Positions 1,985-32,000 of a stretch of 32,000 nucleotides of DNA are shown here, piece by piece. The first letter of the stretch is position 1. Each line of letters opens with the position of its first letter. The DNA lies in assembly GCA_004282745.1 (NCBI GenBank), contig SHMT01000008.1, positions 19,909 through 51,908 of the forward strand, written 5' to 3'. The stretch comes from Candidatus Scalindua sp. SCAELEC01 (GTDB lineage: Bacteria > Planctomycetota > Brocadiia > Brocadiales > Scalinduaceae). The notes under the pieces are model-generated. The model saw only the letters and a list, made by a program, of their open reading frames with translations. It was not told the DNA's origin and made no database searches. Both the position numbers and the translations under genes were made by a program.

Positions 1985-2110
1985 GTGTTTGAACAAAAAG
2001 TGCCCGGCTACAAGACGCGTAACAATTTCGTAACCGGAGCGTACTCAAGTACGTGAGGATTACGGAATCGTTACAGTAACGCAGTAGATGGGTAGTTTTC
2101 GTCCAAACAC
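1985..2110. mobile_element. MITE family A, copy A1 (short form, forward)
   Basis: About 126 bp. Terminal inverted repeats GTGTTTGAACAAAAAGT ... AGTTTTCGTCCAAACAC. The interior (CGTAACAATTTCGTAACCGGAGCGTACTCAAGTACGTGAGGATTACGG..GCAGTAGATGG) recurs at 10803, 12483, 14166 and 14778. There is no ORF. Confidence 0.8.
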
Positions 2111-3159: not shown

Positions 3160-3239
3160 AGTTACCTGTTTCTCCTCTGCTGAAAAAAAAATCACCTCCG
3201 TACTCTGAACAGCTTCCTTAAGCTCCGAAAAATAACAAC

Positions 3240-6842: not shown

Positions 6843-6880
6843 AAAAAGAGAGACATTACCAGTTAAAAAGCGGTAGATCT

Positions 6881-6917
6881 TTACGCATTGACAGCGTTTA
6901 GGAACGATAATGCGTAA
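6881..6917 (-). promoter_or_regulatory. 9-bp inverted repeat TTACGCATT-N19-AATGCGTAA upstream of the likely giant-ORF start (candidate operator or 5'UTR hairpin)
   Basis: Seen directly, 40-75 nt upstream of ATG 6842. It has no known binding-site identity. Confidence 0.2.
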
Positions 6918-7177
6918 AATAACACGCAAGTGGAAGGATTGAATCTCCATTTCAGCATTGATGTAATCCATTAGCCATTTTGGCAGGTGAACATCTGCAA
7001 GTTGAGTAGTGCCAACGAAAACCCTACCCTTTGAAGAAATGGACCTCTCTTTTGGTGAAAAGGAGATATGTCTTTTAATACTAGTTGGGGAGAAAGGAAC
7101 AAATCAGGCTGTAAGAGTAACTGAGCTTATCCTTCGGCACCCGCTGATTGGGCACGTCCCGGCTGAGAGACAGAGCG

Positions 7178-12106: not shown

Positions 12107-12487
12107 ATGTATACGGGTATCGATATTATTGAAGTGAAGAGGATTGAACGGGTCTTTCTCTCCCATGAAGGCTTTGTCAGAAGGGTTTTCACGGAAGATG
12201 AGGTGAAATATTGCCAATCGAAGAGGAACTGTTTCCAGCATTATGCAGTTCGTTTTGCAGCAAAAGAGGCCGTTCTTAAGGCCTTTGGGACAGGCTTAAG
12301 AGAGAGGATGAAGTGGACCGACGTAGAGACACTCAACGAAGAGTCAGGAAAACCGTATGTAAATCTCTATGGCCGGGTTAAAGAGATGGCGATTGAAAAA
12401 AATATCTGTGAGATTTCAATCTCTCTGTCTCATTGCAAAGAATATGCAGTCGCTCACGCATTATTGGTTACACGCAACAATGGTTGA
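12107..12487 (+). CDS. acpS: Holo-[acyl-carrier-protein] synthase (4'-phosphopantetheinyl transferase, AcpS type)
   Basis: 126 aa. GIDIIEVKRIERV, FTEDEVKYC, FAAKEAVLKAFGTG and ISLSHCKEYAVAHALL are the AcpS family blocks. The stop codon TGA (12485-87) lies inside the MITE A3 terminal repeat. Confidence 0.9.
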   Translation: MYTGIDIIEVKRIERVFLSHEGFVRRVFTEDEVKYCQSKRNCFQHYAVRFAAKEAVLKAFGTGLRERMKWTDVETLNEESGKPYVNLYGRVKEMAIEKNICEISISLSHCKEYAVAHALLVTRNNG

Positions 12488-12936: not shown

Positions 12937-14094
12937 TTAAATAATGATCTGGTTTTTCCATAGCAAACGCAAAAACTCCATTGCGGGATAAATATATATA
13001 CCATCCATTTTGGTCACTCTTTCTCCGAGAAAAATCCCTAAACATTTCACTTTCCCTTCACCCAATTCCTCACGTAATCTATGCAACCCTCTGTTATATT
13101 TTCTCTCCCAAACCTTCACGCTTTTTATCTCTATAGCGAGAAACTCATTCGCTTGCTCCAAAAATATGTCTACTTCATTGCCACCGTGGCTTCTCCAATA
13201 ATATAACGGGTATTCATTATCATTATAGTGTAGATAAGCTCGCAATTCGTTTATAATGAACGTCTCAAAAAGAGGGCCCAACTCCTCATGCAATATAGGA
13301 TATGCCAGCCTCCCGGATAAAGCGCGAACAACACCGGAATCAAAAAAATAAAACTTTGGGTGGGCTACCTGCTTTGTAGATGTTTTTAACTTCCATGGAT
13401 AGAGCCAAAACCCGGTTAAAGTGTCTATGAGGATCTCGAAATAGCCTTGTACAGTTTGCCGAGCAACCATTGCGTCTCTTGATATTGAGGATACGTTGGT
13501 TATTTGTCCGTTTTGCCTTGCCGCAACTTCCAAAAATCTTGCAAAATTCCCGATATTTCTGGTTAAAGCTTCCCCCTTTATCTCCTCTTTCAAATAGGTT
13601 TCAGCGTAGGTTTTCAAAAACCGCATGGGCTTTTCCGATAAAAAGGAGAGAGGCAGCATTCCATAAGTAATCTGTTTTTTCAAGTCAAAATCAAATCCAA
13701 CCTCTTTTGAAACAAAAGGAAAAAGATAGAAGGTGATGGCTCTGCCGGCCAATAAATTAACACTCGATCTTCTCAATTTACGAGCGCTTGAACCGGAGAG
13801 AATAAAAAACAGATTTCTATCTTCTATTATGCGATGCACTTCATTAAGCAAGTCCGGAACTTTTTGTATTTCATCAATTACTACCGTAGTCTTAGGCGGT
13901 AAATGTATGGTTTCGTCATAAAGCAGAGAAGGTTGCCTGCTAAATCTGATAACTTCCGCAGTATTTAAAAGGTCATAGGTAATAGCATTGGGGAAATGAT
14001 GTTTGATCCAAGTGGACTTACCTGTACCTCTCGGACCAAGCAAAAAAGCTGAAGAGCTCATTTTTTTTAATACTCTCTTAAACATAGTCGGCAA
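12937..14094 (-). CDS. AAA+ ATPase with C-terminal DUF4143 domain
   Basis: Walker A GPRGTGKST, Walker B VVIDEIQ, and a DUF4143-like C-terminal half (GEALTRNIGNFARFLEVAA..; YYWRSHGGNEVD). The codon at 14094 is TTG; the first ATG is at 14085. Confidence 0.85.
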   Translation of the reverse strand: MPTMFKRVLKKMSSSAFLLGPRGTGKSTWIKHHFPNAITYDLLNTAEVIRFSRQPSLLYDETIHLPPKTTVVIDEIQKVPDLLNEVHRIIEDRNLFFILSGSSARKLRRSSVNLLAGRAITFYLFPFVSKEVGFDFDLKKQITYGMLPLSFLSEKPMRFLKTYAETYLKEEIKGEALTRNIGNFARFLEVAARQNGQITNVSSISRDAMVARQTVQGYFEILIDTLTGFWLYPWKLKTSTKQVAHPKFYFFDSGVVRALSGRLAYPILHEELGPLFETFIINELRAYLHYNDNEYPLYYWRSHGGNEVDIFLEQANEFLAIEIKSVKVWERKYNRGLHRLREELGEGKVKCLGIFLGERVTKMDGIYIYPAMEFLRLLWKNQIII

Positions 14095-15025: not shown

Positions 15026-16492
15026 ATGAAAAAGTTAATTCTCATTAATCCTCACCCCGTTGGTAATGTTGGCGAGGAGAATGTCTCCGTATTAAATCAG
15101 ATGCCCGTAAACCTGGGGTATTTGAAGACGCTGACACCGGATCATTGGGATGTAGATATTATTGACGAGACACAAGAGCTGGCAGTGGATGAAAAGGGTG
15201 AGAACATCTGTTTTGAAAAGCCTGATTTGGTCGGAATTACGTGTGTGAGCTATCAGGCTCATCGGGCATATCAGATAGCTACGGCATGCAAAAAAAACGG
15301 GATACCCGTTATCATGGGCGGTGTACACGCTACAAGTAATCCCGAAGAAGCGGCCCAATATGTTGATTCTGTCATAATAAGAGAGGCAGTTACGATTTGG
15401 GCCGAGATAATTGCTGATTTTGAGAACGGTGCCCTTAAGAAATCATATGATGGCGGCCTCACGCCTATGGAGATGTACAAAGAGCTCTACTCGGATCGAG
15501 AGTTTTTAAAGGAGAAATATAAGTATCGCTATTCCGGCATCATCACGACTGCCGGGTGCCCCTTTAGTTGTGATTTTTGTTCGGTTCCTCAGTTTCAAGG
15601 GAGAAAGTATCGGGAAAGACCGATCGATGATGTGCTCAACGAGCTGGAGAAAATCAAAGGAGAGTATCGGGGCCTTATCCTGACCGATGAAAATTTCTAT
15701 GGACACAGTAAAAAATCAAACGAAAGAGTGCGCACTCTCTTTAAGAAGATGGTAGAGAGAGGCATATATCAGAATTGGTTTGGCTTCACGTCGTTAAACA
15801 TCTATCAAGATGATGAAACATTAGACTACATGGTAAAGAGTGGTTGTGTTGGAGTTCTCATTGGGATTGAATCTATCAATGAAGAGACGTTAAAGACGAT
15901 GAATAAGGGCGTCAACTTGCGCATCACCGTCGACAAATATAAAGAAGCGGTAAAAAATATTCGGAAACATGGTCTTGCAGTATGGGGTACAATGGTTTTC
16001 GGTAATGATGGTGATACACCGGAAGGTTTTAAAGAGGTAGTAGATTTCATTGTTGATGCAAAGATCGACATTATGACCTGTGGTATTTTATGCCCTTTTA
16101 TTAATACCCCCCTATATCTGAGACTTAATGGTGAAAAGAGACTGTTTCGGACAAATTTCCCCGAAGATTGGATCTACTATACTTCGCACCATCTTACCTA
16201 TGTATTAAAACTTTCACTTCAGGAATTCATTGATGGTCTGGAGTATGTCTATGAGAATATCTATTCAACTGATGTGATTAGGGCGAAATTCCGAAATGCA
16301 AAGACGGAGTTAAACAACCTCAACGCCGCTATGTTTGCCTTTCGGGTAAATCTTGACTGGCAATATGTCTTTCACCATTTGTTAGAAAACTTAAGGGAAT
16401 TACAGGCTTCAGGTGTCTATGAAGAGGCACGTGAACGCTACGAAAAAATGAAACGTAGTAAGGATACCGGTTTAGCAAGCGCAAGGTCTTAA
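15026..16492 (+). CDS. Cobalamin (B12)-binding-domain radical SAM enzyme
   Basis: 488 aa. N-terminal Rossmann-like B12-binding region (LINPHP..DLVGITCVSYQAHRAYQIA..PVIMGGVHAT). Radical SAM cluster motif AGCPFSCDFCSVP (Cys178/182/185, nt 15557-15580). Confidence 0.85.
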   Translation: MKKLILINPHPVGNVGEENVSVLNQMPVNLGYLKTLTPDHWDVDIIDETQELAVDEKGENICFEKPDLVGITCVSYQAHRAYQIATACKKNGIPVIMGGVHATSNPEEAAQYVDSVIIREAVTIWAEIIADFENGALKKSYDGGLTPMEMYKELYSDREFLKEKYKYRYSGIITTAGCPFSCDFCSVPQFQGRKYRERPIDDVLNELEKIKGEYRGLILTDENFYGHSKKSNERVRTLFKKMVERGIYQNWFGFTSLNIYQDDETLDYMVKSGCVGVLIGIESINEETLKTMNKGVNLRITVDKYKEAVKNIRKHGLAVWGTMVFGNDGDTPEGFKEVVDFIVDAKIDIMTCGILCPFINTPLYLRLNGEKRLFRTNFPEDWIYYTSHHLTYVLKLSLQEFIDGLEYVYENIYSTDVIRAKFRNAKTELNNLNAAMFAFRVNLDWQYVFHHLLENLRELQASGVYEEARERYEKMKRSKDTGLASARS

Positions 16493-16662: not shown

Positions 16663-17871
16663 GTGTCAAAAGTCGTTGTTACGGGTTTGGGATTAGTATT
16701 AGCCAATGGCATTGGAGTTAAGGATGCATGGGAAGCACTCATTCAGGGCAAAGATGGCTCAGGAGAGGTAACCTCATTTGACACCTCACCGTATAAGATC
16801 CATCGTGCCTGTGAAGTGAAGGATTTCAAGATAGATACCACATTTGAAAATGAAACGCCTGCCCATACGATCCACAAGTATGCCTATTCAGCGGCTAAGG
16901 AAGCGTTAGAAGATAGTGGTTTACACAATGTCGCCAAATATGATTGCGAAAGATTTGGAATTGCGATTGGAACCCTTGCCGGGGAACTTCCCCCGTTTGA
17001 ATACCTGTTACGCAACTCCCCTGATGAGAAGGCTAACGGTTTTGACATGAACGTCGCCTTAACATACCCTCCATCCTCAATAACTTCCCTACTCTCCGAA
17101 GATTTTGGTTTTGAAGGCCCGAATATGGTTTCGTTAAATGCATGCTCTTCCGGCAACCACGCTATCGCATGGGCATATGATCTCTTGCTAAACGGGAAAG
17201 TTGACGTAATGCTCGTAGGCGGCGGTGAACTAATACCGCAAACGGAGTTTACCCATTTTCACAATTTAAAGGCGCTCACTCCCGAAAAATGTCGCCCTTT
17301 TGACAAAGAGAGGAAGGGACTCATTATTGGTGAAGGTGCAGGGATTATGGTAATAGAGAACCTCGATTTTGCAAAAAAAAGAGGGGCGAACATTTATGCG
17401 GAATTAAAGAGCTATGGAATGAGTTGTGACGGTCACCATATGACAGCCCCACATCCAGAGGGGGCGGGAGCAATCAGGTCAATGATGGACGCTCTATCAG
17501 TTGCACAGCTCTCCTATAAGGACATTGATTACGTTAACGCGCATGGTACTGGCACGCCCTTGAATGATCGGATGGAAACGATGGCCATTAAATCTGTCTT
17601 TAAGGAGAGGGCAAAGCAGATTCCCGTTAGTTCAATAAAATCTATGATTGGCCATACCATGGGTGCGGCAAGTGCAATCGAGTCGGTCACAAGCTGCCTT
17701 TCGATCAAGAACAATATAGTTCCCCCTACAATAAACTACGAAACCCCTGATCCCGAATGTGATTTAGATTATGTGCCCAACGAGGGGAGAGAACTCAGAG
17801 TCAATTGCGTATTGAATAACTCCTTCGCCTTCGGAGGAAACAATGTCACCAATATTTTTAGTAGGCTTTAG
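16663..17871 (+). CDS. fabF: Beta-ketoacyl synthase, FabF/KAS-II type with an intact Cys-His-His triad
   Basis: GTG start with GAAGGA 7 nt upstream. Active-site NACSSG (Cys161, TGC 17143-45), GHHMTAP and NAHGTGT, and a C-terminal NSFAFGGNN. Confidence 0.9.
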   Translation: MSKVVVTGLGLVLANGIGVKDAWEALIQGKDGSGEVTSFDTSPYKIHRACEVKDFKIDTTFENETPAHTIHKYAYSAAKEALEDSGLHNVAKYDCERFGIAIGTLAGELPPFEYLLRNSPDEKANGFDMNVALTYPPSSITSLLSEDFGFEGPNMVSLNACSSGNHAIAWAYDLLLNGKVDVMLVGGGELIPQTEFTHFHNLKALTPEKCRPFDKERKGLIIGEGAGIMVIENLDFAKKRGANIYAELKSYGMSCDGHHMTAPHPEGAGAIRSMMDALSVAQLSYKDIDYVNAHGTGTPLNDRMETMAIKSVFKERAKQIPVSSIKSMIGHTMGAASAIESVTSCLSIKNNIVPPTINYETPDPECDLDYVPNEGRELRVNCVLNNSFAFGGNNVTNIFSRL

Positions 17872-17893
17872 GAGCTGGATAACTAAATTATCA

Positions 17894-19123
17894 ATGAATA
17901 AAAAAACGGTAATTACGGGTATTGGAGTTGTTTCTCCAATTGGTATCGGCCATCAAGATTTCTGGAAAAATCTCGTTTCGGGTAATTCCGGCATTACCCC
18001 TATGGAATCATTGGATCTTTCTAAATATGAATGCAAAAATGGGGCAGAGGTAAAGAATCTAGATCCAGCGGAGTTTCTCGGTCGTAAAGGACTCAGATAC
18101 CTACACAAGGGAACTAAATTTCTTGCCTCCAGTATAAAATTGGCGCTTGATGACGCAAACCTGAACATAGATGATGAGATATCAAGCCGGACGGGCATTC
18201 TCATAGGGACATCCCTTGGTAATTTTTCTCAAACCACCGATTATTTTCATGATATAGTTCGGGAGGAGCCTTCTGAACTCTCGCCAATGCAGAGCTATGA
18301 TGTTGCACTCAATTCGTCAATAAACTACGCCTCGGTCTTTTTCAAGATAAAGGGATTTGCCAGGACAATCTCTTCCGGTTTTACGTCGGGAATTGACGCT
18401 ATTGGTAATGCACATAGGCTGATTCAGAATGGAAAAGCAGACGTAATCATCGCTGGTGGTGTTGAACAGATATCGTTGGACCTCTACATGATCTTTCTCC
18501 TGAGAAAGATGTTGTCCGGTTCACATGGTGCAGACAGTGAGATCAGCATGCCATTTGATAAGAGACGGAATGGCTTCATAATGAGTGAAGGCAGTTACGT
18601 ATTCGTAATGGAGGAGCTTGATTTTGCCTTGAGTCGTGGCGCAAAGGTGTATGGTGAGGTATCCGGGTTTGGAACTATTTTTGCTGGAAACAAAAAATAC
18701 GATACGGGAAGAAGGGTCGAAAAGGCCCAGTCGGCAATGAAAGCGTGTATGGATGACGCAAACATTTCTCTTCAAGATCTTGACCTTATTCAGGCCAATG
18801 GAAATTCAGGCCGACTATCAGACCATATTGAGGCACAGGCTATTTTCGAGTTGTTTGAAAAAAGAGGGGACGAGATACCCGTATGTGCAGTTAAATCTAT
18901 TGTGGGTGAGTGCTATGGCGCCTCCGGGGCAATGCAAACCGCAGCAACGGCACTCGCAATTCAAAACAGTCTCATACCTCCGACAATCAACTGTGAAGAG
19001 AAGGACCCTGAGTGTAACGTAAACATAATTCATCAGAAACAAGCGTGTAAGATAAACACGGCACTTGTCAATTCGTTTGATTATACAGGCAATAACTCCT
19101 GTTTAATGGTCAAGAAATTATGA
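17894..19123 (+). CDS. Ketosynthase paralog lacking the catalytic triad (chain-length-factor-like partner subunit)
   Basis: Thiolase/KS fold is clear (VITGIGVVSPIGIG; ADVIIAGGVE; NSFDYTGNN). The Cys position reads SGFTSG (Phe163, TTT 18380-82). His1 aligns to Lys (GNKKYD) and His2 to Asn (QANGNSG). The N-terminus MNKKTVITGIG fits the family; an alternative upstream ATG lies at 17843. Confidence 0.85.
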   Translation: MNKKTVITGIGVVSPIGIGHQDFWKNLVSGNSGITPMESLDLSKYECKNGAEVKNLDPAEFLGRKGLRYLHKGTKFLASSIKLALDDANLNIDDEISSRTGILIGTSLGNFSQTTDYFHDIVREEPSELSPMQSYDVALNSSINYASVFFKIKGFARTISSGFTSGIDAIGNAHRLIQNGKADVIIAGGVEQISLDLYMIFLLRKMLSGSHGADSEISMPFDKRRNGFIMSEGSYVFVMEELDFALSRGAKVYGEVSGFGTIFAGNKKYDTGRRVEKAQSAMKACMDDANISLQDLDLIQANGNSGRLSDHIEAQAIFELFEKRGDEIPVCAVKSIVGECYGASGAMQTAATALAIQNSLIPPTINCEEKDPECNVNIIHQKQACKINTALVNSFDYTGNNSCLMVKKL

Positions 19124-21165
19124 GTGAGCTATTTGAACCCATTAACCTAGGTAGCATTAAGGTAAAAAACAGACTTGCCATGTCTGCAATGGACCTCGGA
19201 TTTACCTCCGACGGTTCGGTAAATGAGCGTTTCATCGATTTCTATGTAGAGAGGGCCCGGGGAGGAGTAGGCTTAATCGTAATAGGAGGTTGCTATCCTG
19301 AGATGAATGGCAAGGTGTGGAAGAGTATCATTGGCCTGGACAAGGATGATTTTATACCGGGTTTAAAAAAGTTTGCAGATACAATGCACAAGTATGATGT
19401 TAAGGTTGCCGCTCAACTCCTTCATGGCGGCAGAAGCGCCTCCTCTTTCTTTACAAAAATGCGGCCTGTCTCAGCATCAAGTTTGGCACATGTCAACATC
19501 AAACAGGCACCTCACGCACTCACCATACCGGAGATCAAGAGAGTCATTAAGGGATTTGTTGATGCAACCATGCGATTAAAGAAGGCCGGCTTTGATGCGG
19601 TAGAGATCCACGGAGGCATGGGCTATTTGATCAATCAATTCCTTACCAGGGCTACGAATGAGCGAAGGGACCGATATGGAGGGAGCCTCAAAAACAGGAT
19701 AAATTTTGCCAGAGAAATTGTGATTGCAATCAAAGATAAAATTGGTAAGAACTTTCCCATCATATTCCGCTTGTCCGGAGACGATTTTGTTGATAACGGA
19801 CTCAAGATCGATGAGAGTATTGAGATTGCAAAGGAGCTGGAAAAGGCGGGTGTAGATGCATTCAATATATCTCCCGGTTGGCATGAGAGTCGGACCCCCA
19901 TAATGCTTATGTCCATCCCAAGAATGTCCTACATATTCTTAGCAGAAAAAATGAAGGACCAGCTCCAAGTACCCGTCATTGGATCGGTGAGAGTAAACGA
20001 TTTGGCATTAGCTGAAGAGATTCTGGATAATGGGCAGTCTGACATGGTATCGATAGGAAGGCCCCTCATCGTCGACCCGGAATTACCCAAAAAGTACAAG
20101 AAGAAACAGTTCGAAGATATTAGAAGATGTATTGCCTGCAACCAAGGCTGTTTCGATTCGTTGTTAAACTTTAAATCGGTAAGCTGCATCTACAATGTGA
20201 GGGCCGGAAGAGAGCGGGAGTTAAAGATCAGGAAGGCCAAGAAAATGAAGAGGGTAATGGTGATCGGTGGTGGTCCCGGAGGTCTCGAAGCGGCAAGGGT
20301 TGCCGCACTACGAGGGCACGAGGTCCATCTGTATGAGAAAAATAGTGTCCTTGGCGGACAACTAAGATATGCCTATCTACCTCCTGGAAGGGGAGAGATA
20401 GAAAACGTCATTACCTTTCTCGAGGCACAGATAAAAAAATTAAACGTAAAAATTCAACTACACAAGAAGGTCGATACGAAGGAAATTAAGAATTTAAAAC
20501 CCGATGCCGTAATTGCCGCTATTGGAGGTAGCCCCATCATACCTCCTATTCCGGGCATCAGAGAGAAGAATGTCGTTGTGGCCGAGGATATCTTTGATAA
20601 CCGGGTAAAGATCGGAAAAGATGTGGTCATTATCGGTGGCGGGACGATTGGGTGTGAAGTCGCCTTGCACATTGCAAAAATGGGAGCAATGAATCCTGAG
20701 GTGGCGTGCTATCTCCTGCGAAATGGGGTCATAAGCGGTGATGAGGCGGTAGCGTATACCTCACGAGGAAAAAGGAATATTACAATCTTAGAGATGAAGA
20801 ACAAGATTGGGGGCGCATTTGGCATCTCAACTCGCTGGGTCATCATAAAACAGGTGAAAGATGCGGGGGTTGAGTGTATGAACGGCTTGCATGTCAAAGA
20901 GATCAAGACGAGCAAAAATGGAAAGAGGTCATCCAAGGCAAAATCTCAAGATACAAAAATCTGCGTAACCTTTGAAAAAGAGGAGAAGGTAAATTCGATT
21001 TATGCCGATACCGTCGTCATAGCAGTTGGATATAAACCCAATCAAGACCTGCTCAGAAAGTTAGATGGAACAGTAGACGAATTTTATACAATAGGAGATT
21101 GTGTAACGGTCCGGACTGCCCTTGAAGCCATCCACGAGGGATTTGAAGCGGGTTTGAAAGTTTAA
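19120..21165 (+). CDS. FadH-like (2,4-dienoyl-CoA reductase family) Fe-S flavoprotein: OYE-type TIM barrel plus a FAD/NAD(P)-binding domain
   Basis: 681 aa. OYE-like N-terminal domain (HGGMGYLINQFL, RYGGSL.NR), a 4Fe-4S motif CIACNQGC..C (Cys337/340/344/356, nt 20128-20187), then VIGGGPGGLEAA and a second IIGGGTIGCE dinucleotide fold. The start overlaps the upstream stop (ATGA). Confidence 0.85.
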   Translation: MSELFEPINLGSIKVKNRLAMSAMDLGFTSDGSVNERFIDFYVERARGGVGLIVIGGCYPEMNGKVWKSIIGLDKDDFIPGLKKFADTMHKYDVKVAAQLLHGGRSASSFFTKMRPVSASSLAHVNIKQAPHALTIPEIKRVIKGFVDATMRLKKAGFDAVEIHGGMGYLINQFLTRATNERRDRYGGSLKNRINFAREIVIAIKDKIGKNFPIIFRLSGDDFVDNGLKIDESIEIAKELEKAGVDAFNISPGWHESRTPIMLMSIPRMSYIFLAEKMKDQLQVPVIGSVRVNDLALAEEILDNGQSDMVSIGRPLIVDPELPKKYKKKQFEDIRRCIACNQGCFDSLLNFKSVSCIYNVRAGRERELKIRKAKKMKRVMVIGGGPGGLEAARVAALRGHEVHLYEKNSVLGGQLRYAYLPPGRGEIENVITFLEAQIKKLNVKIQLHKKVDTKEIKNLKPDAVIAAIGGSPIIPPIPGIREKNVVVAEDIFDNRVKIGKDVVIIGGGTIGCEVALHIAKMGAMNPEVACYLLRNGVISGDEAVAYTSRGKRNITILEMKNKIGGAFGISTRWVIIKQVKDAGVECMNGLHVKEIKTSKNGKRSSKAKSQDTKICVTFEKEEKVNSIYADTVVIAVGYKPNQDLLRKLDGTVDEFYTIGDCVTVRTALEAIHEGFEAGLKV

Positions 21166-21169: not shown

Positions 21170-21970
21170 ATGAAAGACATACGAATGAACAGGGGTGATG
21201 ATTCCGGATCTCAGCACCTCGAATATGAAGAGGTAGAGCTAAAAAACAACAGATATGCCGGAGTCATTAAGATAAAGAAGCCACCCCGGAACTCTATTGG
21301 TTCCTGGTTGCTAGATGCACTCTATGACAGGATTGATTCATATGAAAAAGATGACACGATAGCGGCCATCATTATCACGAGTAGTATACGGGGGGTCTTT
21401 TGTGATGGTGCAGATAGAGATGAGCTGTTCGGTTCATGGATATCGGGTTTAGTGGCTGAAAAAAACTACGATAGATTTGTCAGGGCTCATGAGATGTTTA
21501 GGGAGATAGAGAATTGCCAAAAACCGCTCATTGCCGCACTGAATGGTGTTACCATAGGGGCAGGACTGGAACTCGCCCTCTTATGCGACATCCGCATAGC
21601 CTCAGAAATCGCGTTTTTCAGTCTCCCTGAGGCAAAACCTGAATTGAGCATAATACCGGGGCTTGGAGGGACTATCAGACTTCCGAAGATAATCGGTACC
21701 GCACGGGCCAAAGAGATGTTGTATTCGGGAAAGATGATTCGTGCGAAAACGGCACTGCAGTGGGGTTTGGTGAACAAACTTGCACCCGTTAGGGAGGTAC
21801 TTAAAGAGGCGCTCGATTACGCCAAGGTGCTGGCTGAGAACAACGGCAAGGCAATACAGACAATGAAAAAGTGTATAAACTTTGCAATGGAACACGATAC
21901 AAGCGAGGGTATCAAATATGAAGTTGGTCTCTTTGCGGAGATGATGCGAGAGAAACTGGTAAAGACGTAG
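21170..21970 (+). CDS. Enoyl-CoA hydratase/isomerase (crotonase) family protein with both catalytic Glu positions retained
   Basis: ALNGVTIGAGLELALLCDIRIAS and SLPEAKPELSIIPGLGGT are the crotonase oxyanion-hole and catalytic blocks. Only 4 nt separate it from the upstream stop. Confidence 0.85.
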   Translation: MKDIRMNRGDDSGSQHLEYEEVELKNNRYAGVIKIKKPPRNSIGSWLLDALYDRIDSYEKDDTIAAIIITSSIRGVFCDGADRDELFGSWISGLVAEKNYDRFVRAHEMFREIENCQKPLIAALNGVTIGAGLELALLCDIRIASEIAFFSLPEAKPELSIIPGLGGTIRLPKIIGTARAKEMLYSGKMIRAKTALQWGLVNKLAPVREVLKEALDYAKVLAENNGKAIQTMKKCINFAMEHDTSEGIKYEVGLFAEMMREKLVKT

Positions 21971-22033: not shown

Positions 22034-22771
22034 ATGAAAGACAAAGTTGCAATAGTGACAGGCGGCACAAGAGGTATCGGTCGGGCAATAGTCCTTGAAT
22101 TAGCACGGAATGGGTGTAATGTTGCCTTTAATTACGCAAAGAGTGAGGAGCTGGCAAAAACCCTTGTAACAGAAGTTGAGTCACTCGGTGTCAAGGCCTT
22201 GGCAAAACAGGCAGACGTAGTAGATTTCGAGGCAGCAAAGAGTATGGTGGCTGAGGTTAAGGAAGAGTTCGGACAGATAGATTTTTTGATCAACAATGCC
22301 GGTGTGACCAGGGACAAGCTCCTCGCCTTAATGAAGGAGAGCGATTGGGATGAGGTGATCAACACCAACCTCAAAAGCGTCTATAACTTTTCCAAGGCCA
22401 TAATTATGACCATGGTCAAACAGAAGAGCGGGAACATCCTCAACATTACGTCAGTAAGTGGAATCGCCGGAGTAGCAGGACAGACGAACTATTCCGCTTC
22501 GAAGGCAGGCGTCATCGGCTTTACCAAGGCCCTGGCCAAAGAAGTTGGCAAGGCAAAAATAAATGTAAACGCGATTGCGTGTGGCTTCATTGAGACAGAC
22601 ATGACCGCCTCGCTCCCGGAAGAGTATAAGAGTAAGATGATAGATATGACATCTCTCAAACGGTTTGGAAACCCCGAGGAGATAGCCAAGATTGCGAAAT
22701 TCATGCTCTCAGAAGAGGCAAAATATATTACCGGACACGTTCTTACCGTTGATGGCGGTTTGGCGCTATAA
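22034..22771 (+). CDS. fabG: 3-oxoacyl-[ACP] reductase (SDR, FabG type)
   Basis: TGGTRGIGRA, NNAG and YSASKAG motifs, 245 aa. GGAGG lies upstream of the ATG. Confidence 0.9.
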   Translation: MKDKVAIVTGGTRGIGRAIVLELARNGCNVAFNYAKSEELAKTLVTEVESLGVKALAKQADVVDFEAAKSMVAEVKEEFGQIDFLINNAGVTRDKLLALMKESDWDEVINTNLKSVYNFSKAIIMTMVKQKSGNILNITSVSGIAGVAGQTNYSASKAGVIGFTKALAKEVGKAKINVNAIACGFIETDMTASLPEEYKSKMIDMTSLKRFGNPEEIAKIAKFMLSEEAKYITGHVLTVDGGLAL

Positions 22772-23142: not shown

Positions 23143-23454
23143 ATGCTATTCTTGTTAAAGGTCCAGATAAAGAAAGTACCCGATATTCCCTTAAAAGATT
23201 TCCTGGGATTTGTGGTCAAGGAGTGGGAATATTTTTTGAGGATGAAAAGAAGGGGCAAGATCCTTGCCGGAGGTAAGTTAGCCGGAGGCAGAGGAGCTGC
23301 CGCCATTATTGAGGCTGACTCACATGAAGAATTCGACCAGATCGTGGGAAACCTGCCACTCTTTCCTTTTTTTACTGACATAGAAGTAACACCGCTCATT
23401 TCCACTGAAAAAGCCTTGACTGACGTTAAACGGGTCCATTCGCTTATGAAGTAG
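23143..23454 (+). CDS. Muconolactone delta-isomerase-like (ferredoxin-like fold) small protein
   Basis: 103 aa. MLFLLKVQI start and GNLPLFPFFTDIEVTPL resemble the MIase family block LPLFPY.DIEV.PL, from memory only. Confidence 0.5.
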   Translation: MLFLLKVQIKKVPDIPLKDFLGFVVKEWEYFLRMKRRGKILAGGKLAGGRGAAAIIEADSHEEFDQIVGNLPLFPFFTDIEVTPLISTEKALTDVKRVHSLMK

Positions 23455-23761
23455 AATCAATCGTAAACATAACGATTTAATAAGAACTTTGAGAAACGAA
23501 AATATATATTATTAGTGACGCATGTGTCCTTTGTTGGTATACTGAGGACTAGTTATTAACGTGGCCTTAACTTTTCTTAGGGATTTTTCTCAAGAAAAAC
23601 TTTAATAGCCACGCAAACTGTACATAAGAAGCTTCACACTCAGGCCCTGAGGGGAATCGGGAGGAATATCCGTGACTCACACCCGGTGTGTTGCACAAAA
23701 AATAATTAGCCGAATGTCGGCTTTCGCTATCTAAAGAATCAGTGTGCTTGGTTTTTGATAG

Positions 23762-23767
23762 TATAAT
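23762..23767 (+). promoter_or_regulatory. Perfect TATAAT -10 box about 30 nt upstream of the RRM gene start
   Basis: The hexamer was read directly. No convincing -35 element. Confidence 0.25.
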
Positions 23768-23798
23768 CTCAGTCAACGCACAAAAAAGAGGAAGATAC

Positions 23799-24071
23799 AT
23801 GAATATTTATGTGGGAAATCTGCCATACAGTGTAACTGAAGCCGATCTGAGGGAGGCTTTTTCTGGGTTTGGTGAAATATCGAACGCATCTCTTATCAGC
23901 GATAAGTTTTCAGGCAAATCAAAAGGATTTGGATTTATTGAGATGCCAAACGACGAAGAGGCGAATGCCGCGATTCAGGCCCTCAATGAAAGTGACTTGC
24001 AAGGAAGGAATATCAAGGTAAATCAGGCGAAACCAAAAGGTGACCCCTCTGAACGCAGGCCAAGATATTAA
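23799..24071 (+). CDS. RRM-domain RNA-binding protein (short-tail type)
   Basis: RNP2 MNIYVGNL and RNP1 KGFGFIEM, 90 aa. AAGAGGAAG RBS. The ORF-track start at 23742 adds 19 unlikely residues. Confidence 0.9.
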   Translation: MNIYVGNLPYSVTEADLREAFSGFGEISNASLISDKFSGKSKGFGFIEMPNDEEANAAIQALNESDLQGRNIKVNQAKPKGDPSERRPRY

Positions 24072-24101
24072 CCGGTAACAATGTCATCTACTGGAAATCA
24101 A

Positions 24102-24299
24102 ATATACTAAAACCGATCTGGTTTTCGGTTTTACCTGTCCGAACGGTTGACAGGCCGGGCTGGCCGAAAACCAAATTTTGGTTGCCTGCCCGGCATGTTG
24201 TTCAGGCGGGCCCTTTTCCCCGGACAAAAGGTGCCGGGGACTTTCCTCGTTGAATTGTATCTCGGATTTTATCCGAAAACCACTATGAGATGAGTATAT
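24102..24299. mobile_element. MITE family B, copy B2 (long form, forward)
   Basis: It runs ATATACTAAAACCGATCTGGTTTTCGG ... CCGAAAACCACTATGAGATGAGTATAT over 198 bp. It sits between the RRM gene and the helicase start. Confidence 0.8.
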
Positions 24300-24392
24300 T
24301 ATTTCCTCCCATTATTCATTATGCTTCTTTCCTCCTATAATTGCTGACTGTTCATCAGGTAAGTACAAATAATTATTAAGGTGATTTAAATT

Positions 24393-25721
24393 ATGAAAAC
24401 CTTTGCAAATCTTGGTTTGACTGAAAATTTACTGCGTGCCGTTAAAGACAAAGGCTACGAGATGCCTTCTCCCATACAGGTCCGCGCCATCCCTGCCATA
24501 TTGACCGGTAAAGATATACTTGCCGCAGCGCAAACGGGTACGGGTAAAACAGCAGGTTTCACCCTACCGATGGTACAGATCCTCGATCAGACAGTATCTG
24601 ATGGGGGACGTCCGATCAGGGCACTCGTTTTGACTCCAACCCGGGAGCTAGCAGCACAGGTCCAAGAGAGCATCAAGGCCTATGGTAAATACCTAACCCT
24701 TAAAAGCATGGTTGTTTTTGGAGGTGTGAATATCAAACCACAGATTGATCAATTAAAAAAAGGGGTGGATATTCTGGTTGCTACACCTGGTCGATTACTA
24801 GATCTCTGCAGCCAGAAGGCATGCAGATTGAACCAGGTCAACATGCTGGTCCTTGATGAAGCAGACCGTATGCTAGACATGGGTTTCATTCATGACATCC
24901 GCAGAGTTATCAAACTGTTGCCACCAAAACGGCAAACACTCCTCTTTTCAGCCACCTTTTCAACAGAGATTCGTGCCATGACACGCGAGTTTCTTGTCAA
25001 ACCCACCACCATTGAAGTAACACCAGAATACAAGGCTGCACAGACTGTCTCCCAGTGTGCATATCGATGTGACGCCAAGGCAAAGACCAGCCTTGTTACC
25101 CATCTGATCAACGAAGGAAACTGGGCCCAGGTACTGATTTTCACGCGTACCAAACATGGTGCCAATCGCCTGAGCGTTAAACTTGCACAGGCAGGCATTA
25201 AGACCAATGCCATACATGGCAACAAGACACAGCCCTCTCGCATCAAGGCCCTGGACGATTTAAAAAAACGTAAGATTCGTGTCCTTGTAGCCACTGATAT
25301 TGCCGCACGCGGTCTGGATATTATCCAGTTGCCGCATGTTGTCAATTATGATCTGCCCAATGTACCGGAGGATTATGTCCACCGCATTGGTAGGACAGGA
25401 AGAGCTGGTATGGAAGGCGAAGCTATTTCCCTGGTCTGCAATGAAGAGCGGGCTTTTCTACGCGGTATCGAAAAACTGACTGGTCAATCGATTAAGCTAT
25501 TGGATGTGTCAGGTTTCGAGCCAACCATCTGGCCGAGAAGAGCCCCAACTGCCAGTGAAGTGCAAAAAACTGCCGCAATACGCAAAGAAACCGCACGTCA
25601 GGCACGTGGCCCTCGCAGACAAACTGCAACCAGAACTTCAACCAGAGAGAGCACTGCTACGGGTAAAAAACCCAGCAGAAGCGGTAATCAAAAACGGAAA
25701 TTTCCTGGTGGAAAAGGCTAG
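24393..25721 (+). CDS. rhlE: DEAD-box ATP-dependent RNA helicase (RhlE-like, basic C-terminal tail)
   Basis: Q motif (F..LGL...L..A....GY..PSPIQ), [21 protein letters not shown] and [10 protein letters not shown], plus an Arg/Lys/Thr-rich tail. Confidence 0.9.
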
Positions 25722-25746
25722 TTGTATCCCCTAAAGAGATGGCCTG

Positions 25747-26187
25747 TTACCTTCCCCTTCCACCCCTGCCACCACTGTACCCTCCCTTGCCACCACCATA
25801 TCCGCCTTTTTTGCTACCACTGTATCCTCCCTTGCCACCACCATATCCGCCCTTTCTGCTACCGCCATATCCACCCTTACCTCCACCCTGTCCGCCACCG
25901 AAACCTCCGCCGTACCCACCACCTGAACCTCCTCCAAAGTTTCCGGTACGAGGACGTGCTTCATTCACGTTAAGCGTTCTTCCCTTTAACTCTTTACCGT
26001 TCAACCCATCAATTGCCGCTTGTCCTTCAGCTTTAGATGGCATTTCAACGAATGCAAATCCTTTTGGCTGACCACTAAACTTATCTTTAATGATATTAAT
26101 TGATTCAATCTTACCGAATGGTTCACAAGCAAGCCGTAAATCTTCTTCGGTGGTGTCGTATGACATATTTCCAACATAAATATTCAT
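25747..26187 (-). CDS. RRM-domain RNA-binding protein with a long glycine/tyrosine-rich C-terminal tail
   Basis: MNIYVGNMSY (RNP2) and KGFAFVEM (RNP1), then GGGSGGGYGGGFGGGQGGGKGGYGG... The ATG at 26187 is preceded by AAAGGAAAAG. Confidence 0.9.
   Translation of the reverse strand: MNIYVGNMSYDTTEEDLRLACEPFGKIESINIIKDKFSGQPKGFAFVEMPSKAEGQAAIDGLNGKELKGRTLNVNEARPRTGNFGGGSGGGYGGGFGGGQGGGKGGYGGSRKGGYGGGKGGYSGSKKGGYGGGKGGYSGGRGGRGR
25769..25858 (-). repeat. Two tandem 45-bp coding repeats (GGYGGGKGGYSGSKK-type unit) in the Gly-rich tail
   Basis: Units 25769-25813 and 25814-25858 are near-identical, and a degenerate third unit follows. Confidence 0.7.
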
Positions 26188-26250
26188 TCTCTTTTCCTTT
26201 CTCACAATAAAGTTTTACTTAAGATATCATTTTTACAATGGGCATATATC

Positions 26251-31298: not shown

Positions 31299-32000
31299 CT
31301 AATCAGCAAGGCAATCTACCTGGTCATTGTGGAGACATTCAGATTTTGGAAGTACGTCACCCTCTTTACGGTTTTTCCCCTTTAATAGGTCTGTGTATTC
31401 CCCCTGACTCCAGAACTTGAACGGCACATGCTCAATATCCATAGCCTTCTCTAATCTCGCCATTCTCTTAAGCCTTGAAGCTTCCGCCTTAATGGCAATC
31501 AGCTTTCGGTGCATTGGAATGGCGCCGCCTCTACTATAACTGTGATTTTCCATCGAGGAGTGCGCCGCTGCTTTATACACGTTCGTTATCTGATACGTCG
31601 CCATTTCAAAAAACAACCGTTCTATGTTGGAAACATTATATACCCGCGTTTCTCCTTCAGGCAAAAGACTAAATATGCTATGCCCCTGCCAGTCAGGTGC
31701 CAGTCCTTCAGGCATAGGATCAAGTATACCTTCGTCATAAAGATCTATTATTATGTTGTAGGCCTCTCGTACCTTTGCAAAGTTAAGATTTACGATATCA
31801 TCCATAGCGCTCAGCTGGTCTCTTGCAAAGTTTGAAGAGTGACAATTTTTACAAACCTTAATCCACGCATTACGTTTCTTTTCATGTTTCTTTGCTCCAC
31901 GATCAACTTGCGATGAACCCATATAGGTAAACTCTGTTGAGGCGTTTAAAATATCATGATTTCCTTCCGGCATATGGCAGTAGGCACACGTGGGAGTTCT
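31299..32000 (-). CDS. Multiheme cytochrome c of the hydroxylamine oxidoreductase (HAO/HDH) family, C-terminal part; the N-terminus lies beyond the window end
   Basis: The ORF stays open to base 32000 (RTPTCAYCHMPEGNHD...). Two heme c motifs, CAYCH and CKNCHSSNF, then a long helical C-terminal region as in HAO-type octahemes. Confidence 0.75.
   Translation of the reverse strand, partial: RTPTCAYCHMPEGNHDILNASTEFTYMGSSQVDRGAKKHEKKRNAWIKVCKNCHSSNFARDQLSAMDDIVNLNFAKVREAYNIIIDLYDEGILDPMPEGLAPDWQGHSIFSLLPEGETRVYNVSNIERLFFEMATYQITNVYKAAAHSSMENHSYSRGGAIPMHRKLIAIKAEASRLKRMARLEKAMDIEHVPFKFWSQGEYTDLLKGKNRKEGDVLPKSECLHNDQVDCLAD

What the first reader, a model, noticed from the sequence alone, without database searches (positions are those of the whole stretch)
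17894..19123. Second ketosynthase has lost all three catalytic residues (Cys to Phe, His to Lys, His to Asn)
Ungapped by-eye alignment of the two adjacent KS proteins gives:
- KS1 SLNACSSGNHAI versus KS2 TISSGFTSGIDAI, putting Phe163 (TTT 18380-82) at the nucleophile position
- KS1 CDGHHMTAP versus KS2 FAGNKKYDT
- KS1 VNAHGTGTP versus KS2 IQANGNSGR

The fold-defining blocks are retained. This is the logic of KS-alpha/KS-beta (chain-length factor) heterodimers in type II PKS and aryl-polyene systems. There the Cys is usually Gln or otherwise lost, and the inactive subunit shapes the product tunnel. A bulky Phe at this position is notable. It suggests a structural, chain-shaping partner rather than a decarboxylating primer.
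Basis: seen in the sequence. Interest (0 to 1): 0.7.

Follow-up and report, generated by a model that had tools for sequence, protein, structure and literature searches.

The report
Catalytically dead ketosynthase partner in Scalindua
The second of two adjacent ketosynthase genes in this anammox bacterium (Candidatus Scalindua) really has lost its catalytic residues and is most likely a conserved, non-catalytic "chain-length-factor"-like partner of the first. The same loss was reported in 2009 for the likely Kuenenia counterpart, and a sister pair from the same bacteria was shown in 2026 to work as such a heterodimer, so this is a new member of a known kind.

Summary
KS2 (17894-19123) is a real, intact FabF-fold gene. 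Proper alignments put Phe163 (TTT 18380-82) at the nucleophile Cys. The FabF triad is Cys163/His303 ('AHGT')/His340 ('GH'). KS2 has Phe163/Asn302/Glu339. The 'His to Lys' change affects a non-triad His. All three catalytic residues are still gone.

The window is Candidatus Scalindua sp. AMX11, an anammox bacterium. KS1/KS2 sit in a conserved module: AcpS, B12-radical-SAM, KS1, KS2, FadH/OYE-like reductase, enoyl-CoA hydratase, FabG, MIase-like. This matches Kuenenia kuste2802-2805, where Rattray 2009 already listed Phe163/Asn298/Lys328/Glu333 for Kuste2805.

The best PDB matches are chains B and C of 9s5h, evidently the Brocadia amxFabF2/amxFabFmut heterodimer. A 2026 preprint showed that pair to be a KS/chain-length-factor-like complex. 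The window pair is a paralog of it, only 36-38% identical.

- Phe163 is invariant in 121 orthologs.
- dN/dS is 0.12.
- The most conserved segment is the tunnel-forming helix-loop-helix.
- 32 natural KS-deadKS fusions exist in the same order.

The heterodimer reading is well supported by homology but untested for this pair. Phe is the commonest residue at this position in the wider family, so it is not exceptional.

The parts
12107..12487 (+). AcpS, holo-ACP synthase (4'-phosphopantetheinyl transferase). First gene of the conserved module and counterpart of kuste2802.
   Evidence: Pfam ACPS, E 1.6e-19. It lies directly upstream of the radical-SAM gene in L004-L007 and L085. Rattray Table 1 lists Kuste2802 as AcpS.
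15026..16492 (+). Cobalamin-binding radical SAM enzyme, counterpart of kuste2803. It is a paralog of the Cluster I radical SAM enzyme.
   Evidence: Pfam B12-binding plus Radical_SAM. It is 54% identical to the radical-SAM gene of Cluster I in L008. It scores only 75 bits against TIGR04072, whose cut-off is 360.
16663..17871 (+). KS1, a catalytically intact FabF-type ketosynthase and presumed active subunit. Key residues: Cys161 (17143-45), His294 (17542-44), Lys326, His331 (17653-55), gate Phe390.
   Evidence: NCBIfam fabF, 420 bits. Best PDB hit is 9s5h_B, E 2.8e-123. Residue table; coordinates.
17894..19123 (+). KS2, a triad-less FabF-fold protein of 409 aa and presumed non-catalytic chain-length-factor-like subunit.
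   Evidence: Both Pfam ketoacyl-synt domains. Best PDB hit is 9s5h_C, E 4.4e-92. AF2 pLDDT 94.8 and TM 0.94 to FabF 4ls5. dN/dS 0.12.
18191..18313 (+). KS2 residues 100-140, the helix-loop-helix predicted to cover KS1's active site. It includes Ser134, Val137 and Ala138 (18293-95, 18302-07) at the positions of amxFabFmut Phe135, Thr138 and Val139.
   Evidence: This is the most conserved part of KS2: 22 of 35 columns (residues 106-140) are invariant, against 33% overall. S/V/A is invariant in 121 orthologs. F/T/V is invariant in 120 Cluster I proteins. Tunnel role taken from the preprint.
18380..18382 (+). TTT, Phe163, at the nucleophile Cys position.
   Evidence: Invariant in 121 of 121 orthologs.
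18692..18694 (+). AAA, Lys267, opposite the conserved non-triad His (E. coli FabF His268 by my own recollection of that sequence).
   Evidence: The position is K (39) or R (82) in orthologs.
18797..18799 (+). AAT, Asn302, at the first catalytic His ('AHGT').
   Evidence: N in 118 and S in 3 of 121 orthologs.
18893..18910 (+). Lys334 (retained FabF Lys335 equivalent) through Glu339, which sits at the second catalytic His ('GH').
   Evidence: Both are invariant in 121 orthologs. K and E are also nearly universal in the wider triad-less family.
19120..21165 (+). FadH/OYE-type flavoenzyme (FMN domain plus FAD/NAD(P)H domain) and likely enoyl or dienoyl reductase. Its ATG overlaps the KS2 stop (ATGA).
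   Evidence: Pfam Oxidored_FMN plus Pyr_redox_2. Overlap shown. It follows KS2 in L004, L005, L007, L085 and L086.
21170..21970 (+). Crotonase-family enoyl-CoA hydratase or dehydratase.
   Evidence: Pfam ECH_1, E 7e-48. Present in L004, L084 and L085; absent in L005, L007 and L086.
22034..22771 (+). FabG, 3-oxoacyl-ACP reductase.
   Evidence: TIGR01830, 313 bits against a cut-off of 298.
23143..23454 (+). Muconolactone-isomerase-like small protein, the conserved last gene of the module.
   Evidence: Pfam MIase, E 1.2e-12. Syntenic in L004, L007 and L085.

Best explanation
KS2 is the non-catalytic, chain-length-factor-like subunit of a KS1:KS2 heterodimer.

The pair belongs to a second module that I found in every anammox lineage sampled: AcpS, B12-radical SAM, KS1, KS2, FadH/OYE reductase, (ECH), FabG, MIase-like. 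This module is the Scalindua counterpart of Kuenenia kuste2802-2805. It is a paralog of the ladderane 'Cluster I' pair amxFabF2/amxFabFmut.

Shown here:
- KS1 keeps every FabF catalytic residue.
- KS2 keeps the fold but has Phe, Asn and Glu at the Cys-His-His triad.
- KS2 is under purifying selection.

Inferred by homology:
- The two proteins form an obligate heterodimer with a single active site, in KS1.
- KS2's helix-loop-helix (about residues 100-140) closes over KS1's acyl tunnel. It supplies Ser134, Val137 and Ala138 where Cluster I has Phe, Thr and Val, and so sets which acyl chains are accepted.

Speculative:
- Phe163 fills KS2's own vestigial acyl pocket, so the dead site cannot trap acyl- or malonyl-ACP.
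- The smaller S/V/A residues give a roomier tunnel than in Cluster I.
- FabG, ECH and the FadH-like reductase supply the ketoreduction, dehydration and enoyl reduction steps. The ACP is encoded elsewhere.
For: - Triad loss by three alignment methods; triad identity fixed.
- Best PDB relatives are the two chains of one heterodimer, 9s5h B and C. The preprint shows that pair co-purifies, is active only together, and that the dead subunit tunes chain preference.
- Conserved adjacency of KS1 and KS2 in all 10 loci examined: L001-L007 and L084-L086. There is a 22-nt gap between KS1 and KS2, and the KS2 stop overlaps the next start.
- 32 natural fusions have an intact KS followed by a degenerate KS. 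The fusion model has pTM 0.95 and matches the PfaC KS-CLF didomain 6riw, TMq 0.82.
- Phe163, Lys334, Glu339 and the S134/V137/A138 signature are invariant in 121 orthologs. The helix-loop-helix is the most conserved segment.
- dN/dS is 0.12 for KS2 and 0.078 for KS1.
- AF2 pLDDT 94.8, TM 0.94 to FabF.
- Paralogy with Cluster I. One genome (MHYW01) holds both modules (L006 and L008). S. rubra holds both P0034 and P0350. L084 has both in tandem. KS2 is 36-38% identical to Cluster I dead subunits, which are never Phe: V74, T19, E21, I6.
- The Kuste2805 residue pattern and the kuste2802-2804 gene order match.
Against: - No experiment or complex model exists for this pair. The tools offered no multimer prediction.
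- A simple net-charge count did not reproduce the electrostatic asymmetry reported for the Cluster I interface, even for the Brocadia pair itself, so that test says nothing.
- S. brodae amxFabFmut crystallises as a homodimer when expressed alone, so homodimers of dead subunits can exist.
- Asn302, Asn304, Lys334 and Glu339 are strongly conserved in the 'dead' site. This could hint at a residual binding or other function.
- Orthology to Kuste2805 rests on published residue tables and gene order, not on a sequence comparison. No Kuenenia, Brocadia or Jettenia names appeared among the top 120 profile hits.
- No ACP gene lies in the window.
- ECH and FadH families usually act on CoA thioesters rather than ACP thioesters.
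Confidence: 0.78

Rival explanations
1. KS2 is a decaying duplicate (pseudogene in the making) of KS1 or FabF, with no function.
For: All three catalytic residues are lost. KS2 evolves faster than KS1: 72.5% against 84% identity to L004, and 53% against 69% to L005.
Against: - The reading frame is intact.
- dN/dS is 0.12.
- Phe163, Lys334 and Glu339 are invariant in 121 orthologs.
- Synteny is conserved from Scalindua to deep-branching groundwater anammox lineages.
- The fold is predicted confidently, pLDDT 94.8.
Confidence: 0.02
2. KS2 acts on its own, as a homodimer or with another partner, and has a new non-ketosynthase role. Examples are an acyl-ACP binding or gatekeeping protein, or the coupling enzyme that Rattray et al. 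proposed to join a ladderane moiety to a short acyl chain.
For: - Polar residues in the former active site (Asn302, Asn304, Lys334, Glu339, Gln348) are invariant.
- S. brodae amxFabFmut forms homodimers in crystals.
- Rattray 2009 suggested a different substrate and function for Kuste2805 and Kuste3606.
Against: - KS2 has no nucleophile and no general base.
- The paralogous dead subunit is inactive alone, and its helix-loop-helix is disordered in the homodimer.
- The preprint argues explicitly against a catalytic role.
- Natural fusions tie this domain type to an intact KS.
Confidence: 0.1
3. KS1/KS2 are simply the Scalindua orthologs of the already characterised Cluster I pair (amxFabF2/amxFabFmut), so nothing distinguishes them.
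For: The best PDB hits are 9s5h B and C. A B12-radical SAM gene is adjacent, as in Cluster I.
Against: - Scalindua has separate Cluster I dead subunits (P0345, P0350, P0358, P0374). They carry Val or Thr at the nucleophile position and are 36-37% identical to KS2.
- S. rubra has both types.
- Genome MHYW01 has both modules (L006 and L008).
- The neighbours differ: no ACP, FabZ or phytoene-desaturase-like gene here. Instead there are AcpS, a FadH/OYE reductase, ECH, FabG and an MIase-like gene.
- The tunnel signatures differ: SVA against FTV.
Confidence: 0.02
4. KS2 is a chain-length-factor-like subunit, but its partner is a different ketosynthase (amxFabF2 or the housekeeping FabF) rather than KS1.
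For: Nothing direct. The two dead-subunit families share the Asn/Lys/Glu core.
Against: - KS1 and KS2 are adjacent in every locus examined.
- The branching order of the anammox KS1 and KS2 clades is congruent in the NJ tree.
- The fused homologs join neighbouring types in the same order.
Confidence: 0.06

Closest known systems
Kuenenia stuttgartiensis Kuste2804 (FabF) and Kuste2805 ('non-canonical FabB'), with Kuste2802 (AcpS) and Kuste2803 (B12 radical SAM). Sources: Rattray et al. 2009 (PMC2649909); Javidpour et al. 2016 (PMC4790861).
   Same: The gene order is the same: AcpS, B12-radical SAM, intact KS, triad-less KS. Published active-site residues for Kuste2805 are Phe163, Asn298, Asn300, Lys328, Glu333 and Gln342. 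KS2 has Phe163, Asn302, Asn304, Lys334, Glu339 and Gln348.
   Different: - Kuste2805 is listed with Cys302 and gate Phe392, where KS2 has Gly306 and Tyr397.
- The published Kuenenia cluster stops at four genes. In Scalindua and deep-branching lineages a FadH/OYE reductase, ECH, FabG and an MIase-like gene follow.
- Orthology was not checked by sequence here.
- The Kuenenia proteins were insoluble in E. coli and remain uncharacterised.
amxFabF2/amxFabFmut heterodimer of ladderane Cluster I (KustE3605/3606; Brocadia fulgida structures, evidently PDB 9s5h/9s5i). Source: Granatino et al., bioRxiv 10.64898/2026.05.19.726425.
   Same: - Closest solved structures for both KS1 and KS2.
- An active FabF-like subunit sits next to a triad-less one.
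- The dead subunit has Asn at the first His, a retained Lys, and Glu at the second His.
- A B12-radical SAM paralog lies in the same cluster.
   Different: - It is a paralog, not an ortholog: 36-38% identity to KS2.
- Its nucleophile position is Val, Thr, Glu or Ile, never Phe.
- Its tunnel-lining residues are Phe/Thr/Val, against Ser/Val/Ala in KS2.
- Its neighbours are amxACP, amxFabZ and a phytoene-desaturase-like enzyme, instead of AcpS, FadH/OYE, ECH, FabG and MIase-like.
Type II polyketide synthase KS-alpha/chain-length-factor heterodimers (actinorhodin 1tqy, ishigamide Iga11/Iga12 6kxd, AntDE 6smo)
   Same: The logic is the same: an active KS plus an adjacent inactive KS-fold partner that shapes the product tunnel.
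   Different: - KS2 is closer in sequence to FabFs than to any solved classical CLF chain. KS-alpha chains 1tqy_A, 6kxd_A and 6smo_B appear among the 60 best PDB hits, but no classical CLF chain does.
- There is no Gln at the nucleophile position (from my own knowledge, the actinorhodin CLF has Gln161).
- The accessory genes are fatty-acid-like, not aromatic-polyketide tailoring enzymes.
Fused KS-CLF didomains (PUFA synthase PfaC, PDB 6riw) and the roughly 800-aa KS-deadKS fusion proteins found here (for example P0123)
   Same: The order is the same, intact KS then degenerate KS. The model of P0123 superposes on 6riw over both halves.
   Different: Here the two halves are separate genes. The fusions are only 25-33% identical to KS2, and their second halves carry varied residues at the triad positions.
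Canonical FabF homodimer (E. coli, B. subtilis 4ls5)
   Same: The thiolase fold and length are the same. TM is 0.94 and identity about 32%.
   Different: KS2 lacks Cys, His and His, scores below the fabF equivalog cut-off (322 against 494 bits), and is paired with a dedicated active paralog.

Membership tests
[quoted passage not shown] | Score at or above the curated equivalog cut-off (493.75 bits) | tested here: not met
   KS2 scores 321.7 bits and KS1 420.4 bits. Both are FabF-like but outside the equivalog.
[quoted passage not shown] | Cys-His-His catalytic triad | tested here: not met
   KS2 has Phe163, Asn302 and Glu339. KS1 has the full triad.
Thiolase-fold condensing enzyme superfamily | Both ketoacyl-synt N- and C-terminal domains, with a FabF-like 3D fold | tested here: met
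   Pfam PF00109 (E 1.5e-29) and PF02801 (E 7.4e-22). AF2 pLDDT 94.8, TM 0.94 to 4ls5.
Kuste2805-type non-canonical KS of anammox bacteria | Active-site pattern Phe163/Asn298/Asn300/Lys328/Glu333/Gln342 (FabB numbering, Rattray Table 2) | tested here: met
   KS2 has Phe163, Asn302, Asn304, Lys334, Glu339 and Gln348. Two further listed positions differ: Cys302 against Gly306, and Phe392 against Tyr397.
Kuste2805-type non-canonical KS of anammox bacteria | Genomic context AcpS, B12-radical SAM, intact FabF, then the dead KS | tested here: met
   Window genes at 12107, 15026, 16663 and 17894. The same order occurs in L004-L007 and L085. Kuenenia gene roles.
Kuste2805-type non-canonical KS of anammox bacteria | Reciprocal best sequence match to Kuste2805 (CAJ73556) | not tested
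   The sequence was not retrievable with these tools. The profile search returned no hit named Kuenenia, Brocadia or Jettenia in the top 120.
amxFabFmut (Cluster I, KustE3606 type) | Orthology: clusters with Cluster I dead subunits and lies between amxFabF2 and the phytoene-desaturase-like gene | tested here: not met
   KS2 is 36-38% identical to Cluster I proteins, including Scalindua's own. It forms a separate clade and has different neighbours.
amxFabFmut (Cluster I, KustE3606 type) | Tunnel-lining Phe135/Thr138/Val139 on the helix-loop-helix | tested here: not met
   F/T/V is invariant in 120 Cluster I proteins. KS2 and 121 orthologs have S/V/A.
KS/chain-length-factor heterodimer (functional class) | Inactive KS-fold subunit encoded next to an active KS | tested here: met
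   KS1 is C-H-K-H and KS2 is F-N-K-E. The gap between them is 22 nt.
KS/chain-length-factor heterodimer (functional class) | Physical heterodimer in which the inactive subunit lines the active subunit's tunnel | not testable with these tools
   Inferred only. The basis is homology to 9s5h B/C, the natural fusions, and conservation of the helix-loop-helix.
Aromatic type II PKS chain-length factor (KS-beta, actinorhodin type) | Gln at the nucleophile position (decarboxylative priming) and membership of the CLF clade | tested here: not met
   Phe occupies the position. No classical CLF chain appears among the 60 best PDB sequence hits, whereas FabFs and KS-alpha chains do. The Gln feature itself is from my own knowledge.

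The most novel reading that the evidence does not exclude
Anammox bacteria may run two paralogous 'B12-radical SAM plus KS/CLF' modules with a division of labour.

- Cluster I has an F/T/V tunnel and prefers C6-C8 substrates in crosslinking assays. It would build the short linear part of the lipid.
- The KS1:KS2 module has an invariant, smaller S/V/A tunnel lining. It also has its own reductase, hydratase and ketoreductase set. It would be the condensing enzyme that accepts the long, bulky, ring-bearing or polyunsaturated intermediates of ladderane lipids.

That would make KS2 the specificity determinant for a step nobody has yet assigned.
Probability: 0.15. Interest if true: 0.8.

Novelty: new member of a known kind. 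Interest (0 to 1): 0.4.

Why it matters
Ladderane lipid biosynthesis in anammox bacteria is still unsolved, and attention has centred on Cluster I.

This analysis shows that every anammox lineage sampled, from Scalindua to deep-branching groundwater lineages, carries a second module. It has its own intact-plus-dead ketosynthase pair and a paralogous B12-radical SAM enzyme.

The dead subunit of this second pair has a distinct, invariant signature: Phe163, and Ser/Val/Ala at the tunnel positions that were shown by mutagenesis to tune chain preference in the sister pair.

That gives a concrete, testable handle. Co-expression, crosslinking probes and residue swaps could show whether the two pairs handle different intermediates.

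For genome annotation, proteins like KS2 are currently named 'beta-ketoacyl-ACP synthase family protein'. They should not be counted as active condensing enzymes.

Tried and rejected
- **Interface charge count.** I counted net charge in the helix-loop-helix and its partner helix, hoping to reproduce the electrostatic asymmetry reported for the Cluster I interface. The count did not separate the subunits even for the Brocadia pair, so it is uninformative.
- **Genome-collection scan.** The first alignment had no usable conserved stretch. Only L004-L007 are true orthologs.
- **Naming distant relatives.** Cluster look-ups and a third homolog search returned no Kuenenia, Brocadia or Jettenia names. 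Orthology to Kuste2805 could not be confirmed by sequence.
- **Paper search for '9S5H'.** It found nothing relevant. The link between PDB 9s5h and the preprint rests on matching residue numbering and on the description of the structures.
- **ACP gene search.** A motif scan and Pfam runs found no ACP gene in the window.
- **RNA and signal scans.** Rfam gave no hits. The promoter and terminator scan gave counts close to the shuffled expectation, so operon boundaries are not defined by these scans.
- **Pseudogene and Cluster I ortholog readings.** Both were considered and rejected; see the rival explanations.
Full report
**What is at the coordinates**

The window carries a run of + strand genes:
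- a cobalamin-binding radical SAM enzyme (15026-16492)
- KS1 (16663-17871, 402 aa)
- KS2 (17894-19123, 409 aa)
- a FadH/OYE-type flavoenzyme (19120-21165)
- an enoyl-CoA hydratase (21170-21970)
- FabG (22034-22771)
- a muconolactone-isomerase-like protein (23143-23454)

An AcpS gene lies upstream (12107-12487).

KS2 has both ketoacyl-synthase Pfam domains. It scores 322 bits against the fabF equivalog model, whose cut-off is 494.

The start at 17894 fits the orthologs, which are 407-413 aa and begin MNKK or MKK. The database call of 426 aa from 17843 would overlap KS1. The KS2 stop overlaps the next gene's ATG (ATGA).

**Check of the observation**

BLASTP of KS1 against KS2 gives 33% identity and E 5e-66. 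That alignment, the HMMER alignments to B. subtilis FabF and to PDB 9s5h_C, and MAFFT alignments all put Phe163 opposite the nucleophile Cys. The codon is TTT at 18380-18382.

'NAHGTG' in KS1 aligns with 'QANGNS' in KS2, so the first catalytic His is Asn302.

- The preprint on the homologous enzyme names the triad as Cys165/His298/His335, with gate Phe394.
- Counting along chain 9s5h_B with an offset of 5 gives exactly C, H ('SAHGTG'), H ('MMGH') and F at those numbers.
- The 'DAYH' His would be residue 263.
- Rattray's table (Cys163, His298, Lys328, His333 in FabB numbering) says the same.

The true third position is KS1 'SMIGHTMG' against KS2 'SIVGECYG', which gives Glu339. So all three catalytic residues are lost, but as Cys to Phe, His to Asn and His to Glu. 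Lys267 is an additional non-triad change, and Lys334 (FabF Lys335) is kept.

**It is not decay**

The 120 best database homologs are 72-100% identical, and those that carry a source name are labelled Scalindua, Scalinduaceae or Planctomycetes. The 100% match is annotated Candidatus Scalindua sp. AMX11 (GCA_013112645.1).
- Across KS2 plus these 120, Phe163, Lys334 and Glu339 are invariant, and Asn302 is present in 118.
- Against a Scalindua genome at 87% protein identity, dN/dS is 0.12 for KS2 and 0.078 for KS1. The other genes of the module range from 0.04 to 0.10.
- AlphaFold2 gives pLDDT 94.8, and the model superposes on FabF structures at TM 0.94.

**What it is related to**

The best solved-structure relatives of KS1 and KS2 are two different chains of the same entries, 9s5h/9s5i. 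Chain B matches KS1 at E 2.8e-123, and chain C matches KS2 at E 4.4e-92. Chain C has Val at the nucleophile position.

These chains fit a May 2026 preprint (bioRxiv 10.64898/2026.05.19.726425). It shows that the two FabF homologs of anammox 'Cluster I' (amxFabF2 and amxFabFmut; KustE3605/3606) behave as follows:
- they co-purify
- they are inactive alone and decarboxylate malonyl-ACP together
- they form a KS/chain-length-factor-like heterodimer
- Phe135 and Val139 of the dead subunit's helix-loop-helix line the active subunit's tunnel and influence chain-length preference

The preprint does not mention a second pair.

**The window pair is that second pair**

Rattray et al. 2009 list Kuste2802 as AcpS and Kuste2803 as a B12-radical SAM enzyme. 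They list Kuste2805 as a 'FabB' with Phe163, Asn298, Asn300, Lys328, Glu333 and Gln342. Javidpour et al. 2016 call kuste2804 a FabF and kuste2805 a non-canonical FabB, and say the four genes form a complete cluster.

KS2 has Phe163, Asn302, Asn304, Lys334, Glu339 and Gln348 in the same gene order. I could not compare sequences directly, and no Brocadiaceae names appeared in a profile search. This orthology is therefore likely, not proven.

The same module occurs in several other genomes:
- other Scalindua genomes (L004, L085)
- Candidatus Subterrananammoxibius (L005)
- two groundwater Planctomycetota (L006, L007)

The order is AcpS, radical SAM, KS1, KS2, FadH/OYE, sometimes ECH, FabG, MIase-like. 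L086 holds only the radical SAM, KS1, KS2 and FadH/OYE core.

**Paralogy with Cluster I**
- The genome that holds L006 also holds a full Cluster I (L008): ACP, FabZ, intact KS, dead KS with Glu at the nucleophile position, phytoene-desaturase-like enzyme, B12-radical SAM.
- A contig from a sequencing run (L084) has the tail of Cluster I, three B12-radical SAM genes, then a KS1-like gene, a Phe-type KS2-like gene and ECH in tandem.
- A profile of Cluster I dead subunits retrieves 120 proteins, including ones from Scalindua (S. rubra P0350). S. rubra also has the KS2-type protein P0034.
- In those 120 proteins the nucleophile position is Val (74), Glu (21), Thr (19) or Ile (6), never Phe. The three tunnel positions are invariably Phe/Thr/Val.
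- KS2 is 36-38% identical to them and has Ser134/Val137/Ala138, invariant in its 121 orthologs.
- In an NJ tree, the KS1 clade is sister to the Cluster I active subunits. The KS2 clade is separate from the Cluster I dead subunits within a larger triad-less family.

**Support for a heterodimer beyond homology**

Among the 150 best representatives of a 1.84-billion-protein library, 32 of the proteins of about 750-930 aa are fusions. In every one the N-terminal half has Cys, His, Lys and His, and the C-terminal half is degenerate. This is the same order as the genes here.

One such fusion (P0123) models with pTM 0.95. Its best PDB match over both halves is the PfaC KS-CLF didomain 6riw, TMq 0.82.

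Within KS2 the most conserved stretch is the helix-loop-helix. Of residues 106-140, 22 of 35 columns are invariant, against 33% overall. The best 15-residue windows start at residues 100-107. The region around the dead first His has only 3 of 15 columns invariant. This is what one expects if selection acts on the interface and tunnel rather than on catalysis.

**How unusual is Phe?**

Not very. Among the 46 nearest single-domain representatives that lack the triad, Phe is the commonest residue at this position (18), followed by Glu (7).

Adjacent intact-plus-dead KS pairs occur in other phyla, often with FabZ and a phytoene-desaturase-like gene:
- Phe types in Nitrospirae (L018) and Peptococcaceae (L034)
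- Met or Ile types in Omnitrophota (L009) and Acidobacteriota (L011)

Rattray's table also lists Phe163 for a Geobacter protein. Lys334 and Glu339 are nearly universal in this wider family.

**Proposed mechanism**

Shown:
- KS1 is competent.
- KS2 is an intact fold without catalytic residues.
- KS2 is conserved and always adjacent to KS1.

Inferred:
- KS1 and KS2 form an obligate heterodimer with one active site.
- KS2's helix-loop-helix completes KS1's acyl tunnel.

Speculative:
- The smaller Ser/Val/Ala lining gives a roomier tunnel than the Phe/Thr/Val of Cluster I. In Cluster I, Gly substitutions at two of these positions abolished discrimination between C6, C8 and C16 probes.
- Phe163 plugs KS2's own vestigial pocket.

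The neighbours FabG, ECH and the FadH-like reductase could supply ketoreduction, dehydration and enoyl reduction, with AcpS activating a carrier protein encoded elsewhere. By my own reading of the sequence, both crotonase catalytic Glu residues are present in the ECH, and a CxxCxxxC...C motif is present in the reductase. No ACP gene is in the window.

**Verdict**

It is a new member of a known kind:
- The triad loss with Phe was published for the Kuenenia counterpart in 2009.
- The heterodimer principle was shown for the sister pair in 2026.

What this analysis adds is that the second pair is a distinct paralog found in every anammox lineage sampled, with its own invariant tunnel signature.

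Noticed in passing
window 3303-6971 (-): A 1222-aa ORF with no Pfam match. It has an N-terminal membrane-anchored region followed by long low-complexity repeats (SGSESGQK and AGQQAGQK/AGAEAGQQ units). It explains the local GC rise to 0.54 and the AT skew of -0.49. It lies next to a MoxR-type AAA ATPase gene (2110-3195, -).
   Followed up: partly
window 12937-14094 (-): An AAA_14/DUF4143 ATPase gene on the opposite strand separates AcpS from the radical-SAM gene. In other Scalindua genomes and other anammox lineages (L004-L007, L085) no such gene intervenes and AcpS lies directly upstream of the radical-SAM gene. This looks like a lineage-specific insertion into the module.
   Followed up: partly
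window 17843-17893: The public annotation (P0001, 426 aa) starts KS2 at ATG 17843, inside the end of KS1. Orthologs of 407-413 aa support ATG 17894 instead.
   Followed up: yes
L084 1-10202 (Logan SRR13254584): One contig carries the tail of Cluster I (dead KS, phytoene-desaturase-like gene, B12-radical SAM). Two further B12-radical SAM genes follow, then a KS1-like gene, a Phe-type KS2-like gene and ECH. Both modules are therefore in tandem, with three radical SAM paralogs.
   Followed up: partly
window 15026-16492 (+): The B12-radical SAM enzyme scores only 75 bits against TIGR04072 ('rSAM_ladder_B12', cut-off 360), although it is 54% identical to the Cluster I radical SAM of L008. That NCBIfam model apparently describes a different radical SAM family.
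   Followed up: no
L009, L011, L018, L034: Omnitrophota, Acidobacteriota, Nitrospirae and Peptococcaceae genomes carry adjacent intact-plus-dead KS pairs. FabZ accompanies them in L009, L011 and L034, and a phytoene-desaturase-like gene in L009 and L018, but I found no radical SAM gene next to them. This fits reports that antiSMASH calls 'ladderane' clusters in non-anammox phyla (bioRxiv 10.1101/2022.12.20.521206).
   Followed up: partly
window 23742-26205 and the CSD gene seen in L001: Downstream of the module lies a set of RNA-handling genes typical of cold-shock responses. It includes two glycine-rich RRM proteins (23742-24071 +, 25747-26205 -) and a DEAD-box helicase (24393-25721). L001 also has a cold-shock-domain protein. 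The proline-rich ORF at 25739-26071 (+) is the antisense reading of the glycine-rich tail and is probably not a gene.
   Followed up: no
window 31299-31973 (-): A multihaem cytochrome with a hydroxylamine-oxidoreductase C-terminal motif, consistent with an anammox genome.
   Followed up: no
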